Below are positions 1-9,000 of a DNA stretch of 64,000 bases, piece after piece. Where the stretch lies: assembly GCA_965644265.1 (NCBI GenBank), contig OZ286460.1, positions 5,394,001 through 5,458,000 of the forward strand, given 5' to 3'. Position 1 is the stretch's first letter. Every line of letters begins with the position of its first letter. This DNA is from Glycera tridactyla (Eukaryota). Made by a program: the position numbers.

Positions 1-3000
1 ATTGAAAGGGAAACTCCGAGGTACTGCTATCTTTGTCAAGGAGCACCTGACACCCTCAAATAGCCATATTTACTTTCAAACACGTGAAGCGAGAAAATAT
101 GGGATTCTCGACCATACCTGGTCTGAAAATGGGAAAATATGGGTTGTTGAGGCACAGAATGATGAACCAAAAATAATAAAAGACACCTCAGTGCTCATTA
201 CTGCTATAGACGATGCCAAAGCCAGAGGTGTCTCCCCGAGGACAAACTTCCCACCCCGCCCCCCTCGTAGCTCTAATCGTCATGACAGAAATCAACAATA
301 CTCGCGGCGTGATGACATGAGATCCCTAGATCGCCGTGGTGGGGGTCAACCTCAAGAAAATATGATACACAATGGCTATAATAGCAATTACGCCTCAGAA
401 TACCCGAACTTGCCCCTTAGGAATCAAAGTGCACCCATGTCAAATGAAAATCGAAGCACATCAGCCCAGTTGCCTATTGAAATTAGACTCAACCAACTTG
501 CTAACCAGTCCCAACCAATGGAATGTGACAATTACCTGCCTCGCTCCACTGGTTGTGAGAGACCCCCCCGGCCACCAAATTTGAGCAGCTATGCTAGCAG
601 AAGCAACAATGTAGGTCAACAAAATACCCTCTCATACCCACCACCATTACCACCACCACAAGAAGGCACATATGCACATGCACCAATGCAAATTCCTTCG
701 GCGAACTTCTACCCGCCCCCGCCCCAACCTGCCCCAGTCCAATATCCGCCAACGTACAATCGATACCATCCACTCGCTGGCTGGAACCCACAATATTCGC
801 CGTACTCATGAAACTTTGTTATCGAATCCGATTCATTACGATAACATGGCAGGTAATGCATCGAACAGGATTCCGATCTATATGGATGTCTTTAATCCTC
901 GATTGAATACACCACTTGAGGTGGATGACTCTGACTTGAATTCGGCGTGGAGCGTTCTCCACCCCCCTGTGGACTACGACCGCATGTACACGGCAGCATA
1001 TTGGACTCGCCTATACGGACCACCAAAACTAGTCTTTATTGGAGCGAGCCATGCCTATCATTTCGCCCAGCTTAGATATGCACCAAACACACCACTCTCT
1101 ATCAAGAACATTTTCAGTAACAGCAAATTCGTGGCGGTAGGTGGTATGAAGTGGTCGTCTGCTCAGGACAATCTAAACGGAGTTTTCACTAGCGAGGCTA
1201 AGTCTGTAAAATATGGGAACCCTTGGTTGAACTTCCATGCATGTATGAACAACGAGTACCCTACCACTGAACCACATCATGGCATCATATGCCTTGGCTC
1301 AAACGATATGGACGATTTTGACGCCTCATTGCGACAGCTAAAAACCACAAAAAGTAGTCTTGATCTGAATTCGAGAATAGAAATTCATATGCAGAGCTGG
1401 TTCAACCAACTCACGCCTTTGATTAAGTCTGTCATCAACTACATATCAGCACACATCCCAGGTAGCAAGTTGGCATATATTCCAGTCATGCCGAGAATCT
1501 GGTGGCTTCCTGAAACACGAACATTATGCAATCGCATTGATTACTATATCACCATAACCATGGCCCGGCAAGGTGGTAAACATGTCAAAATTCTAAAAAC
1601 CCCATCGCTTTACATAAAAAAATCTGGTAACGAATATAGTGTAATCAACCCTGCCTTCATGCAATCAGACAACCTACATCTAAACTGGTGGGGTTTTGAG
1701 GCACTGGCTAGAGATATCGGTATTCCTATGCAGCAACATGTTGCCTGCACTCAAAAACAGATCTACCCAGGTTATTAGCATGGAAATGTAGCTTCCATGT
1801 GTATATGAACATGCACGTGCAATTATTAGAGCTTTGCAAAATGGTTATGTTGAGCAACATCATGTGTACTACCATTCTTGGAGTAATTTGTATGCAAAAA
1901 TGAAATTTTGTGCCTTGAAATGAACTGTGTCACTCGTATCTAATGTGAGACACTGTTCTCTAGTGAATGCGTGCGAATGCGTGGTGGGTATGTGTGTGTG
2001 CGTGAGCACATATGAATGTGAGTGGATGTGTTAGTGTGCATGTATGGGTGCGTGTGTGTGTGAGTGGGAACGTATGTTGGTGTGGACATGTTTGTATGTG
2101 TGCACGCATGGATTTGTACTGGATCTCGCTATCGGAATGCTATCGATATTCCTATGCAACAGCATGTTGCCTGCGCTCAGAACCAGACCTTCCCAGGTTA
2201 TGTACTACAATTTTTGAAGTAATTTGTATGCAAAATATGATTTATTGATGCATGTGCCCCTGCCAAACTCATGGGAAGGTTCAACTCACCGCCTTAAATG
2301 AAATCATGTGCTCGAGTGGGTGGGTATGTGTGTGGGTGTGTAGGCGTATGCAAGTAAGAATGTGAGTGAATGTGTTAGCATACATGTGTGTGTGTGTACA
2401 TGTGTGTGTGGGTGCGTGTGTTGGTGTGACGCGTGTGTATGTGTGTGCGTATGGAATTATATAGCATCTAATGAGTGTGCATGAAAACCAATCTCGATGG
2501 GACCAGACATGCCGCATATGCTATAGTGGCAGCGCCATCTCGTGCAATTAAGTAGAACAACAAGCACATGTGCATGACATCTAATGGAAAGATCCTGACT
2601 GACTCGTAGTTGTCCCGGTGATAGTAGGGAACAACCCTCACGTAAAACTAGCTATTTTTTGTATGTTGACCGGAGGCAGCCTTACTGGGCCCCCACCCCA
2701 CTTTTGGCATAATTGCCCAAATTTCTTGTCTGTATTTATTTCTGTAAATAGTCTTGAAACTGGTGGTGGTCTACATGAGAAATGTTATTGTCACAGTCAG
2801 TCACTATTTTATTTACCAATTCGCCTCCGCCCCCACCTGTCCCAAAGGTTGTTTCACGGATTTGTTGCACATTACATCTACGATTGTATGAGAAGGGATA
2901 ACTGTGCCTATGATTCTGTACTATCAATTAGCCCACCTATGCATTTATCTATCTATATATTGACAAAACCTAAATGCCTCTCAGCTACTTGATTACTATT

Positions 3001-6000: not shown

Positions 6001-9000
6001 CCTCATGTCATTTCTACATGAAATCTATATAGCCATAAATAAAGGAGATGCCTGTGGAGCCCTCTTTCTGGACCTCGCGAAAGCTTTTGACACGGTGGAC
6101 CATCTAACCTTAGAATCAAAACTTCGCTCCATTGGATGTAAGGCGTCTACTGTCAGTTGGTTCAGGTCCTATCTCTCGAATCGCAAACAGAAAACATTAG
6201 TGAATGACACAAGCTCAGCAACAATGCATATGGAGTATGGAGTCCCCCAAGGCTCCATACTCGGACCGTTATTATTTTCAATATATGTCAATGATATTAC
6301 AAACTCAATTAACCATGGCTCTCCATTTCTCTATGCGGATGACACGGCAATCCTGTGCACCGCCAAGGATCCGCAGCGAGTAGCGGAACTATTGAGTGAG
6401 GATCTCAACTCACTAGACAAGTGGTTTAATGCCAATAAGCTTACACTAAATGCTTCCAAGACTAAGCTCATGTTTTTTGGTACGCGCCCTAATGTCAACA
6501 AGTCAATAACTGTAACAATGTCACTGAAAAATATTCCATTAGAGAAGCCCGACAAGTTTAAGTATCTAGGACTAATACTAGACTCCACCCTCACCTTCAA
6601 AGAGCATGTGACCGCAGTTGTGAACAAGATTACTCGCAAAACAGGCACCCTTTGGAGACTACGACCATATATGAGTAAAGATTTAAGCCTGAAATTGTAC
6701 AAATCTCTAATTGCTCCTCATTTTGCATATGTAGATTTCATATATGATGCTGCTCTCGGGACCCAAAAAAGACGCCTACAGATTGCCCAGACCCGTGCTC
6801 TGAGATGTGTCGAGAATTGTGACCGTCTAACTCCAGGCCTCCTTGTCCACAAATCGACCAAAGTGAAATATCTACAAAATGACAGAGATACACGAACATT
6901 GACTGAAATCCACAAGATTGTACTCGGTCTGGGTCCCTCTACCTTACATGACAATATACAGTTTTCAAGGCAGACATATCATAACACTAGGACCAGTCAG
7001 AAATCCATGTTATCAGTTACAAGACATAACAACAAACTCTCACAAGGTGATATCTTCCACAGAGGTGTCAAGTTATGGAATGCCTTGCCAGAAGAAGCAA
7101 AAATCTTGGACACAATATCCAAGTTCAAGTACTATTTGAAAATGAAAAAGCCAACTGAGGACATCAGCACATATACCCTCCAAAAATGAACTAGTTTGTT
7201 GTCACAAACTTCCTATTGAGCTAGACAAACTGATATCAGAACTCATAGATAAGTAATCATATGTCAAATAGTCCACATCTATATCTGCCATTGTACCTTC
7301 CTCACCTATAAACTAGTATCAGAACTCATGGACAACTGGTCATATGTTACATCGTTTTACACCTATATCTGCCATTGTACTTTGCTCACTTACCCTGGCT
7401 TATGTACACTGTATGTTTTTGTATATAACCTGCTTGTACATATTGTATATACATTATGTTCTCGTCTGTACTGAATGCATCTGGTATTCAGATATTGTAC
7501 AGTAAAGAGAGGAAATAAAGAATTCAAAAAAAAAATACCCCGGAATTACGTCATGAATAGCTCTGATAAATTATACAAATCGGCTTTTTTCTCGTTATTG
7601 ATCATGTGATGAATGGTGGTCAAAATGGCGGAAAACAACCGGATGGTTATACAGGCATTGTTTTCATCACATTTATGGTGAATATGTCAGGATTTTCTAC
7701 CAAACGATCATCAAACGTGCCATTAGATTTGATACTTGTGTATCTGGGACTATTAATTGACATCCAGCAAGTATTTATGGCGTTTTGAGAGCGATCAGCA
7801 GTTATGAAAAAGATCGTTTTCAGCATCCGTCTTCAACCAGTCAACAATGGCGTCTGTACTCGTGTCTGATTCTGTGTTATAAAAATATCAATTTCTCAAG
7901 AACCACGCAATGAATCGACTAACGGCTTATGGCATGGTAAATTAAATAATAAAGCTGACAAATGGTCCGCATCACTAAACTTTTATTTGTTGGGGAACCT
8001 TGTCAAATTTGATGATATTAAGACGTGTTTTTGTTGGTTCTTTCGAAATCCAAGATGGCGGCGGCCGCTAGCGAGCCCTTACCCTGCTTACCTGCTCACA
8101 GGTCTTCGTTCACGTTGACATGTGGCTCTGACGAAATTCATACTCGCATATAAGCCGCCCCCCTGCTTTTCCCCCGATTTTTTGTCGTCAAAAAATGGGC
8201 TTATATGCACGTATATACGGTAGATAATCACCAATAGATGCGTACAGTACCATCAAAACTAATATCGGACAAGAAATGGCAAATTTAGCACGTGAAAAGT
8301 ACCCGCCACATTTGGATTTGACAGACTTTAGGTCTCATGGAACTAATAACGGACACTCCAGTTTAAGCATATACCTGCATGCAGTATACCGGTAGTAAAC
8401 TCTTGCAGCAGTGTTCTGTACACAGTATAATAACTGGGATGAGATGCTCCACGGTGGCAGACAGGTCTGCTTTACGGCTGTTTACTAATAACACTTCCAA
8501 CTTCCATAATATTTACTGCAGGGGACACTCTTCACTCACATACCAGCTCCAGCCAATGATGAGGTGGAGTAATCATGGTTACCATGGTTTCAGAGAAAAT
8601 ACACTCCAGTAGTGGATGCTGCCTGTTTGTGAAATGTCCAACTGTCAGCATAGTTCCTGCACATGCAACTCGTATGGTTTTTGTCTGTGGAGGTAAGACA
8701 AGTGGTGGTTAACTGGCAGATATACATCACCCAAGATTCCATCGCCATGGCGATGCTTCCCAGCTACTCAAAATAAGCACCAGGTGGAGCTTACCTCCAG
8801 CTTCCACATGCAGAGTGAGAAGGGATCAGCCTCCATCGGAATGAGGCAGGTGAATTTCCAAGATGAACAGATAGACTCTGAATTTACCTGCCCAGTCGAC
8901 AAGTAGAGATGAGAATTAATACAGTTGATATAAAATGGTTGCTGGTAAGTTGAATTCTGAGGGGCACATGAATTTCAATTCAACCTGTCCATCGGGCACC

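What the first reader, a model, noticed from the sequence alone, without database searches (positions are those of the whole stretch)
1..7535. Three-ORF non-LTR retrotransposon with a 2.5 kb internal non-coding region
Seen: ORF1, a separate esterase ORF and an intact APE-RT ORF in the same orientation, with 2,492 bp between the esterase stop (1778) and the RT start (4271). Established: most CR1/L2-group LINEs have one ORF1 and a short inter-ORF gap, with the esterase, when present, usually part of ORF1. Inference: this is a tricistronic family that needs a special mechanism to express ORF2, and the motif array and acceptor site in the spacer are candidates for it. All three frames being intact suggests recent activity.
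Basis: partly seen in the sequence, partly recalled or inferred. Interest (0 to 1): 0.65.

Follow-up and report, generated by a model that had tools for sequence, protein, structure and literature searches.

The report
ORF1–esterase pair beside a LINE
Three open retrotransposon genes lie in a row, one of them a free-standing lipase-like esterase, but the 2.5 kb between them reads like the tail of one unit joined to the leader of another, so a single three-gene element is possible but not shown.

Summary
ORF1 (2-811, cut by the window start), an esterase ORF (first ATG 672, probable start 846, stop 1778) and an APE-RT ORF (4271-7189) lie on the + strand with 2,492 nt between the last two.

The esterase label is now tested. 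There is no Pfam or PDB sequence hit. There are 99 relatives, the SGNH catalytic residues are conserved, and a confident model matches PAF acetylhydrolase, GDSL lipases and TAP. In relatives it is a stand-alone protein.

The spacer has two modules:
- 1700-2469: two diverged tandem copies of the esterase ORF's end plus a G/T-rich tract.
- 2627-4104: eight + strand copies of a 24-nt motif found nowhere else in 64 kb.

The RT block ends in AATAAA plus A10. With a repeated 5' leader, one ORF and a poly-A tail it looks self-contained, like published ORF1-less CR1-group (Zenon-type) elements.

I could not test whether the ORF1-esterase pair travels with it, because no eukaryotic genome or contig collection was open. 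My odds are about 0.48 for two juxtaposed units and 0.38 for a true three-cistron family. Interest is moderate.

The parts
2..811 (+). ORF1, open at the window's 5' edge (269 aa seen). A small folded region (about residues 1-80) is followed by a long P/Q/N/Y-rich low-complexity tail. Stop TGA at 809-811.
   Evidence: ORF; stop. No Pfam, PDB or homologue hit. The atlas gives leads only: Baculo_FP_2nd at 0.93, and Tnp_22_dsRBD (L1 ORF1p C-terminal domain) for 16 of 30 hits at 0.92. The single-sequence model is unusable, with pLDDT 44.
846..1778 (+). Stand-alone SGNH-type esterase ORF (310 aa from ATG 846; the frame is open from 615 and the first ATG is at 672). Catalytic Ser68 (nt 1047), Gly99/100, Asn153, Asp275 and His278, numbered from ATG 846.
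   Evidence: In alignment A1: Ser in 23 of 23 sequences, Asn in 21 of 23, His in 20 of the 20 that cover the column, Asp in 19 of 20. ATG 846 has A at -3 and G at +4, and no ATG lies between the ORF1 stop and it.
1700..2126 (+). Unit A: the last ~75 nt of the esterase ORF, about 180 nt downstream, and a ~150-nt irregular G/T-rich tract.
   Evidence: Aligns with unit B: 61 nt at 87%, 40 nt at 90%, and the G/T-rich part at 74%.
2122..2469 (+). Unit B: a second, diverged copy of unit A that lacks the stop codon and 89 nt (equivalent to 1776-1864). Both units end at homologous positions.
   Evidence: tblastn of the esterase C-terminus matches 2142-2201 at 75% over 20 aa.
2627..4104 (+). Array of eight copies of the 24-nt motif GGGAACAACCCTTACTGGGCACCC at 2627, 2671, 3486, 3559, 3728, 3868, 3944 and 4081. 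The last six form about three sub-units of 215-242 nt. The core is 92-100% conserved while the flanks barely align.
   Evidence: 7 matches against 0.16 expected; 8 copies, + strand only, none elsewhere in the window; shuffles give 0-3.
4246..4261 (+). Pyrimidine tract plus CAG, 9 nt upstream of the RT ATG. It resembles a splice acceptor.
   Evidence: It is the only such site in 1779-4300, but the background density is 0.66 per kb. The donor-like GTGAGT sites at 2018, 2060 and 2362 lie in the G/T-rich tracts.
4271..7189 (+). Intact APE-RT ORF (972 aa) with only 27 residues before the endonuclease domain.
   Evidence: The frame is open only from 4268.
7227..7392 (+). Two tandem copies of an 83-nt unit (80% matches) in the 3' UTR of the RT block.
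7515..7535 (+). AATAAA signal and a terminal A-run (7526-7535): the 3' end of the RT block.

Best explanation
The region is a composite of two retrotransposon modules rather than a demonstrated three-cistron element.

Module 1 (from at or before position 1 to about 2469) is a bicistronic unit. It has an ORF1, then 34 nt later a free-standing and probably active SGNH esterase. A short downstream region follows, ending in a G/T-rich tract. This end is present twice (units A and B).

Module 2 (from about 2470-2630 to 7535) has everything a self-sufficient ORF1-less LINE needs. It has a 1.6-1.8 kb leader carrying a motif and sub-unit array, which I infer to be its internal promoter or 5' UTR. It has one APE-RT ORF, a 3' UTR, AATAAA and a poly-A tail.

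On this reading ORF2 needs no exotic translation mechanism, because it is the first long ORF of its own transcript. The esterase-ORF1 pair was placed upstream by insertion, or by template switching of the RT onto another RNA's 3' end.

Shown: the three ORFs, the esterase fold and catalytic residues, the stand-alone nature of the esterase in relatives, the two-part anatomy of the spacer, and the poly-A end.

Inferred: that the motif array is a promoter or leader, that 2469/2470 is a junction between units, and that the two modules do not move together.
For: - The spacer is bipartite. Units A and B (1700-2126, 2122-2469) repeat the esterase ORF's end plus its downstream sequence and end at homologous positions.
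- The 24-nt motif occurs 8 times, only at 2627-4104 and only on the + strand.
- The RT block ends with AATAAA plus A10.
- The sequence after the esterase shows no similarity to the RT 3' UTR.
- The spacer holds 95 ATGs, so scanning or reinitiation from the esterase stop is implausible.
- Passages of PMC13343379 describe ORF1-less CR1-group elements with 1-5 repeating sub-units of 100-500 bp near the 5' UTR. They also describe Zenon elements (insects, crustaceans, molluscs, hydra, some vertebrates) as lacking ORF1 and uniquely poly-A tailed.
- 6 of 59 RT relatives carry a 2A-like D[VI]xxxPGP motif before the endonuclease, and 3 of the 4 scanned also carry a PHD finger. Passages of PMC3708506 tie this layout to mostly single-ORF CR1, Crack, L2 and Rex1 elements.
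- No inverted repeats, tRNA or Rfam family point to a third inserted element in the spacer.
Against: - No target-site duplication of 9 nt or more links the 3' flank (7536 onward, or 8223 onward past the neighbouring repeat) to any point in 1700-4300. The one 10-mer from 8211 starts inside that repeat. The shorter 7-8-mer matches are at chance level. The 5' boundary of module 2 is therefore not defined.
- The RT ORF has only 27 residues before the endonuclease and no 2A or PHD extension. No such motif lies upstream in any frame. It therefore looks like a classical ORF2 that relies on a separately encoded ORF1p.
- An ORF1-esterase unit with no RT of its own would be unusual.
- This is the only ORF1 or esterase copy in 64 kb, yet it sits 2.5 kb upstream of the only intact RT, on the same strand, with all frames open. 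That is a coincidence unless a mechanism links them.
- Codon-usage correlation of ORF1+esterase with RT (0.39) is close to that between the two halves of RT (0.44). It is above that between RT and the other RT fragment (0.18). This is weak evidence.
- The G/T-rich tract is irregular, not a clean microsatellite tail.
- The RT block's own 3' UTR holds an equally diverged tandem duplication (80% matches), so units A and B could be an internal structural repeat of one element.
Confidence: 0.48

Rival explanations
1. A genuine three-cistron LINE family: ORF1, stand-alone esterase and APE-RT move as one unit. The 2.5-kb spacer is part of the element and lets ORF2 be expressed. The routes would be an internal promoter in the motif array giving a subgenomic ORF2 mRNA, splicing from a donor in the G/T-rich tract (2018, 2060 or 2362) to the acceptor-like site at 4261, or internal ribosome entry. 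It could have arisen when an ORF1-less LINE captured an upstream ORF1-esterase module by read-through transcription (5' transduction) and kept its old leader.
For: - Same strand, canonical order (ORF1 upstream of RT) and all frames open.
- The RT ORF lacks the N-terminal extension of its single-ORF relatives.
- The ORF1-esterase pair has no other RT within reach.
- Codon usage is similar.
- A diverged tandem duplication is also present inside the RT 3' UTR, so such repeats are a feature of this element.
- The motif core is far better conserved than its flanks, as expected of a functional site.
- Passages of PMC4120745 argue that ORF1 modules are exchanged between LINE lineages.
Against: - No co-occurrence data exist.
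- Four literature searches found no LINE described with a kilobase-scale inter-ORF spacer or with a separate esterase cistron.
- The spacer holds 95 ATGs.
- The acceptor-like site is not an excess over background, and no AGGTRAGT donor lies on the + strand of the region.
- Hairpin covariation is not significant: 66 of 500 and 101 of 500 shuffles reach the observed values.
- The duplicated esterase end and the separate poly-A tail fit two units at least as well.
Confidence: 0.38
2. The ORF1-esterase pair is the 3' part of a different kind of retroelement that extends upstream of the window. Candidates are a Penelope-like or LTR element carrying an accessory GDSL ORF, or an ORF1-only 'half-LINE'. 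It would be unrelated to the RT block downstream.
For: - Passages of PMC5408684 describe GDSL esterases as separate accessory ORF3s of bdelloid LTR retrotransposons and Athena Penelope-like elements.
- Units A and B look like a duplicated element end.
- The ORF1 domain is unidentified by Pfam and PDB.
Against: - The atlas lead for ORF1 points to the L1 ORF1p C-terminal domain, a LINE protein.
- No LTR, integrase or other pol remnant is seen in the window upstream part, of which only 811 nt are visible.
- The 34-nt ORF1-to-esterase spacing resembles LINE bicistrons.
Confidence: 0.08

Closest known systems
Esterase-type (type IV) ORF1p of CR1, L2 and RTEX LINEs, e.g. zebrafish ZfL2-1 (PDB 4c1b; PMC3905857 and PMC4120745, passages read)
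   Same: An SGNH hydrolase with an intact catalytic set, encoded upstream of an APE-RT ORF in a retrotransposon context. The closest solved folds are PAF acetylhydrolase and E. coli TAP, the same comparators that paper used.
   Different: - Here the esterase is its own cistron downstream of a different ORF1. It is not a domain of ORF1p preceded by a coiled coil.
- Neither the single sequence (E up to 10) nor the family profile (E up to 1) finds a retrotransposon esterase among PDB chains. 4c1b is not among the fold matches listed to rank 50.
- The paper states that no esterase ORF1p in Repbase is combined with an RNA-binding domain. Here an ORF1 with an L1-CTD-like lead precedes the esterase.
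ORF1-less, poly-A-tailed CR1-group elements (Zenon) and ORF1(-) elements with 5' repeating sub-units (PMC13343379, passages read)
   Same: The RT block has one APE-RT ORF, a poly-A signal and tail, and a repeated-sub-unit array upstream of the ORF.
   Different: Clade membership is untested, because no reference RT sequences were available. Here an ORF1 and an esterase ORF lie upstream on the same strand.
GDSL esterase ORF3 of bdelloid Vesta LTR retrotransposons and Athena Penelope-like elements (PMC5408684, passages read)
   Same: The esterase is a separate accessory ORF of a retroelement, with its catalytic residues intact.
   Different: Those ORFs lie downstream of pol in LTR or Penelope-like elements. 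Here the ORF lies downstream of a LINE-type ORF1 and upstream of an APE-RT ORF. Relatedness was not tested.
Monomeric 5' UTR promoters of mouse L1, and ORF1-only HAL1 elements (both recalled, from no call)
   Same: Repeated sub-units upstream of the coding region act as a promoter in mouse L1. An ORF1-bearing unit without RT exists in HAL1.
   Different: Only the 24-nt core is conserved here, not whole monomers. No evidence exists that module 1 is mobilised in trans.

Membership tests
SGNH/GDSL hydrolase superfamily | Flavodoxin-like SGNH fold | tested here: met
   Model pLDDT 89.4, pTM 0.88. 57 PDB matches at E <= 0.001. PAF-AH 1bwp scores E 6.9e-06 with TM 0.62 normalised by target; GDSL lipases and TAP also match.
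SGNH/GDSL hydrolase superfamily | Catalytic Ser (block I), Gly (II), Asn (III) and Asp-x-x-His (V) | tested here: met
   GASH, VGGM, GSND and DNLH are present. In A1: Ser 23 of 23, Gly 22 of 23 at each of two positions, Asn 21 of 23, Asp 19 of the 20 that cover the column, His 20 of 20.
SGNH/GDSL hydrolase superfamily | Match to Pfam Lipase_GDSL or Lipase_GDSL_2 above the gathering score | tested here: not met
   0 families for the window protein at E <= 0.1. Among 11 relatives scanned, 3 gave sub-threshold GDSL hits; the best was 29.9 bits against a cut-off of 32.9. The profile against PDB gave a GDSL protein, 7ddy, at E 0.026 only.
Esterase-type (type IV) LINE ORF1p, ZfL2-1-like | Esterase is a domain of ORF1p, preceded by a coiled coil | tested here: not met
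   A separate ORF starts 34 nt after the ORF1 stop. In 99 of 99 relatives the match starts within the first 97 residues. Coiled-coil propensity was not computed.
Esterase-type (type IV) LINE ORF1p, ZfL2-1-like | Detectable sequence relationship to the solved ZfL2-1 esterase (4c1b) | tested here: not met
   Neither phmmer (E up to 10) nor the A1 profile (E up to 1) returned a retrotransposon esterase. 4c1b is not among the fold matches listed to rank 50.
APE-type non-LTR retrotransposon (LINE) | APE endonuclease and reverse transcriptase in one ORF | tested here: met
   Exo_endo_phos at residues 28-237 and RVT_1 at residues 527-769. PDB hits to R2 and L1 ORF2p.
APE-type non-LTR retrotransposon (LINE) | Defined 3' end (poly-A or microsatellite) and flanking target-site duplication | tested here: inconclusive
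   AATAAA plus A10 is present. No duplication of 9 nt or more was found for a 5' end inside the window. A 5' end upstream of the window cannot be examined.
APE-type non-LTR retrotransposon (LINE) | ORF1, esterase ORF and RT ORF recur together in other genomic copies | not testable with these tools
   There is no other ORF1 or esterase copy in the window. The genome-contig scans were empty.
CR1 group / Zenon | RT domain falls inside the clade in a phylogeny with reference elements | not testable with these tools
   No named reference RT sequences are available. The best relatives are unnamed and about 31% identical. The only hint is that 6 of 59 relatives carry a 2A-like motif and 3 carry a PHD finger. 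Passages of PMC3708506 report such 2A-like sequences in the Rex1, Crack, L2, L2A, CR1 and Ingi clades, and the 2A-PHD-APE layout in Crack/CR1-type elements.
CR1 group / Zenon | Poly-A tail and no ORF1 (as given in PMC13343379) | tested here: inconclusive
   The poly-A tail is met. Whether the upstream ORF1 belongs to the same element is the open question.
L1-type ORF1p (Transposase_22 C-terminal domain) | Match to Pfam Tnp_22_dsRBD or Transposase_22, or to a solved L1 ORF1p | tested here: not met
   No such Pfam hit even at E <= 10. 0 PDB chains. Only an atlas lead exists. The fold model is too poor to use, with pLDDT 44.

The most novel reading that the evidence does not exclude
A LINE family with three cistrons: an L1-type ORF1p, a free-standing active SGNH esterase and an APE-RT. 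It would have been built when an ORF1-less poly-A LINE captured an upstream ORF1-esterase module and kept its old repeat-array leader as an internal promoter. The element would then make a genomic RNA and a subgenomic ORF2 mRNA, as retroviruses do. This would also be the first pairing of an RNA-binding-type ORF1p with a retrotransposon esterase, a combination that Schneider et al. 2013 found absent from Repbase.
Probability: 0.35. Interest if true: 0.7.

Novelty: new variant of a known kind. Interest (0 to 1): 0.45.

Why it matters
Retrotransposon esterases are known as domains of ORF1p in a few LINE clades, and their role is unresolved; membrane targeting has been proposed. This one belongs to a divergent family that Pfam does not recognise. 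It has 99 relatives among 1.84 billion representative proteins, and it is encoded as its own cistron behind a different ORF1. The esterase and a conventional ORF1p would then be made side by side, which separates the two functions genetically and makes them testable one at a time.

If the three ORFs do move together, the 2.5-kb spacer with its conserved 24-nt motif would be a natural system for studying how a LINE expresses a distal ORF2. If they do not, the locus is an ordinary juxtaposition of two young elements, and only the esterase family is worth cataloguing.

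Tried and rejected
- Word-indexed homologue searches with the esterase ORF and with ORF1 residues 1-90 gave no hits.
- The cluster look-up for sources and names of 10 relatives could not be made because the database is switched off. The organisms of the relatives are therefore unknown. The atlas only hints at Mollusca and Chordata.
- For genome contigs, the first alignment was too diverse to give a pattern. The smaller alignment A4 gave 4 pattern matches, 0 confirmed. 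The RT protein gave 50 pattern matches, 0 confirmed.
- Target-site duplication search: no shared word of 9 nt or more that could mark a junction. The one 10-mer starts inside the neighbouring repeat, and one A-rich 9-mer falls inside ORF1. The 7-8-mers are at chance level.
- Rfam at E <= 1 on 1-8200 gave 0 matches. ARAGORN found 0 tRNAs. Inverted repeats in 1700-4300 gave two trivial pairs and no terminal inverted repeats.
- Motif hairpin: 3 of 4 copies fold alike with z about -2. On 8 copies the pairing and covariation are reached by 66 and 101 of 500 shuffles, so this is not supported.
- Splice signals: there is no AGGTRAGT on the + strand of the region. There are three GTGAGT sites in the G/T-rich tracts and one acceptor-like site at background density. 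I built and searched no joined (spliced) sequence.
- The single-sequence model of ORF1 has pLDDT 44, so it was not used for a fold search.
- Codon usage is only weakly informative.
- The tail of the other RT fragment (28080 onward) shows no G/T-rich end or likeness to unit A.
- Kapitonov & Jurka 2003 (PMC7528939) is not held.

Full report
WHAT IS THERE

Under the standard code the first 7.5 kb of the window holds three long + strand frames:
- ORF1 at 2..811. It runs off the 5' edge, and 269 aa are seen.
- An ORF at 672..1778.
- A 972-aa ORF at 4271..7189.

The gap between the last two is 2,492 nt. Its longest ATG-to-stop frame is 109 aa, with no family match.

The 972-aa ORF is an intact APE-RT protein. 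It matches RVT_1 (E 5.6e-38) and Exo_endo_phos (E 2.3e-12), and solved R2 and L1 ORF2p structures. It ends in a 3' UTR that carries two 83-nt tandem units, an AATAAA at 7515-7520 and an A-run at 7526-7535. An unrelated repeat starts at 7537, with a second copy at 17182-17835.

THE ESTERASE

The label needed testing. The ORF gave 0 Pfam families, 0 PDB chains and 0 hits in the word-indexed search.

The exhaustive HMMER search found 99 relatives at E <= 0.001. Of these, 46 score at E <= 1e-10 and 6 at E <= 1e-30, and the best has 36% identity.

An alignment of 22 relatives with the window protein shows the four SGNH blocks. Ser is present in 23 of 23 sequences and Asn in 21 of 23. His is present in 20 of the 20 that cover the column, and Asp in 19 of 20.

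The AlphaFold model built on that alignment is confident (pLDDT 89.4, pTM 0.88). Foldseek gives 57 PDB matches at E <= 0.001. The leading natural ones are brain PAF acetylhydrolase, GDSL lipases, sialate O-acetylesterases and E. coli thioesterase I. So it is an SGNH esterase with a complete catalytic set.

It is not detectably close to the solved zebrafish ZfL2-1 esterase. No retrotransposon esterase appears, or among the fold matches listed to rank 50.

A SEPARATE CISTRON

In 99 of 99 relatives the matched stretch starts within the first 97 residues, and none exceeds 784 aa. At least four of the 22 aligned relatives (P0061, P0063, P0066, P0077) start at the methionine that aligns with ATG 846. 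Two more have a methionine in that column. All share an 'MA...PIY' N-terminus.

ATG 846 lies 34 nt after the ORF1 stop, has A at -3 and G at +4, and has no ATG before it in the gap. The 672 start, and with it the overlap with ORF1, is therefore probably an artefact of taking the first ATG.

One caveat applies. The relatives are automatic ORF calls, many of them fragments, and their sources could not be looked up.

ORF1

Only its last 269 residues are in the window: a short folded part and a long P/Q/N/Y-rich tail. Nothing identifies it by sequence.

The language-model atlas gives leads to the L1 ORF1p C-terminal (dsRBD-like) domain, for 16 of 30 hits at 0.92. It also gives a lead to baculovirus FP domain 2, at 0.93. 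The single-sequence model was too poor to test this (pLDDT 44). Its identity as a LINE ORF1p is therefore plausible but not established.

THE SPACER HAS TWO PARTS

The first part, 1700-2469, is two diverged tandem copies. Each copy holds the last ~75 nt of the esterase ORF, its downstream sequence and a ~150-nt irregular G/T-rich tract. The copies match over 61 nt at 87%, over 40 nt at 90%, and over the G/T-rich part at 74%. Unit B lacks 89 nt, including the stop codon. Both units end at homologous positions.

The second part, 2627-4104, holds eight copies of a 24-nt motif. All are on the + strand, and none occurs elsewhere in 64 kb. A 17-nt core gives 7 matches against 0.16 expected, and shuffles of the 24-mer scan give 0-3. 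The last six copies form about three sub-units of 215-242 nt. The core is 92-100% conserved while the flanks hardly align.

No Rfam family, tRNA or terminal inverted repeats mark a third inserted element.

HOW ORF2 IS REACHED

With 95 ATGs in the spacer, reinitiation after the esterase stop is implausible.

The acceptor-like site ending at 4261 is the only one in the spacer, but such sites occur at 0.66 per kb on this strand. The only donor-like hexamers lie in the G/T-rich tracts, and there is no AGGTRAGT on the + strand of the region. I made no joined spliced model and searched with none.

The motif can fold into a small hairpin in 3 of 4 copies (z about -2). Covariation over eight copies is not above shuffles, with 66 and 101 of 500 reaching the observed values.

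The simplest route is that the motif array is the RT ORF's own leader or promoter. Passages of PMC13343379 describe exactly such repeating sub-units near the 5' UTR of ORF1-less CR1-group elements. They also describe Zenon elements as ORF1-less and uniquely poly-A tailed.

The RT's nearest relatives are only about 31% identical. Six of the 59 carry 2A-like motifs before the endonuclease, and three also carry PHD fingers. Passages of PMC3708506 tie this layout to mostly single-ORF elements.

ONE ELEMENT OR TWO

For two units:
- The bipartite spacer.
- The duplicated end of the esterase unit.
- The separate poly-A end.
- No likeness between the two 3' regions.
- The published single-ORF pattern.

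For one unit:
- Canonical order and a shared strand, with all frames open.
- An RT ORF with only 27 residues before the endonuclease and no 2A or PHD extension.
- No other RT for the ORF1-esterase pair, and no other ORF1 or esterase copy in the window.
- No target-site duplication at a candidate inner boundary.
- Similar codon usage: r = 0.39, against 0.44 within RT and 0.18 with another RT fragment.
- An equally diverged tandem repeat inside the RT 3' UTR, which shows that such repeats are part of this element's design.

A template-switch chimera, or read-through capture, would reconcile both sets of evidence. Neither can be tested here.

I put 0.48 on two juxtaposed units, 0.38 on a true three-cistron family, and 0.08 on the ORF1-esterase pair belonging to another kind of element that extends upstream.

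WHAT STAYED UNCHECKED

- Co-occurrence in the source genome was not tested. No eukaryotic genome was available.
- Both genome-contig scans were empty.
- The cluster look-up is off.
- The RT clade could not be placed, for lack of reference sequences.
- Supplementary files of the papers were not seen.

On the literature: four full-text searches found no description of a LINE with a separate esterase cistron or a kilobase-scale inter-ORF spacer. Passages of PMC3905857 state that no esterase ORF1p in Repbase carries an RNA-binding domain.

The window is not human-like in any respect I saw.

VERDICT

The stand-alone esterase cistron behind a different ORF1 is a new variant of a known kind. The tricistronic reading remains open, at roughly one chance in three to two in five.

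Noticed in passing
window 7537-8222 and 17182-17835: A ~690-nt repeat abuts the A-run of the RT block, with a second + strand copy (83-87% identical). Both copies start at the same base. Its CpG observed/expected ratio is 1.17, far above its surroundings (0.2-0.7). Its nature is unknown.
   Followed up: partly
window 26746-28080, 39374-39667, 40477-40954: Three further RT-coding fragments of other LINE families (39%, 36% and 31-36% aa identity to the RT ORF), all on the + strand like the intact one. The first is 5'-truncated and covers RT residues 518-961.
   Followed up: partly
window 11035-11181, with copies at 16478-16628, 18639-18784, 32283-32429, 51343-51479, 60534-60611: A short (~145-nt) interspersed repeat family, 72-85% identical, in both orientations. 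It is possibly a SINE or MITE. ARAGORN finds no tRNA in the window.
   Followed up: no
window 10233-10673 and 63358-63792: A 440-nt segment repeated in inverted orientation at 90% identity, 53 kb apart.
   Followed up: no
window about 257-808 (ORF1 residues ~86-269); relative P0061 residues ~310-784: ORF1 ends in a ~180-residue P/Q/N/Y-rich low-complexity tail. One esterase relative (P0061, 784 aa) carries a ~480-residue N/Y/H/S/T-rich tail after the esterase. Prion-like tails may be a shared trait of these element proteins.
   Followed up: no
proteins P0005, P0007, P0008, P0009, P0011, P0028 (relatives of the RT ORF): Six of 59 RT relatives carry a 2A-like D[VI]xxxPGP motif 63-121 residues from the N-terminus. 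P0005, P0007 and P0011 follow it with a PHD finger before the endonuclease. The window's RT ORF has neither.
   Followed up: yes
window 2015-2036 and 2359-2380: Within the otherwise poorly conserved G/T-rich tracts of units A and B, a ~22-nt stretch (AGAATGTGAGTGRATGTGTTAG) is nearly identical between the two units. It contains the donor-like GTGAGT.
   Followed up: partly
window 12018-12210, 24526-24667, 25208-25432, 26286-26506, 43281-43498, 46945-47193, 52884-53151: Seven runs of N (1,516 bases in all). They were left as they are.
   Followed up: no
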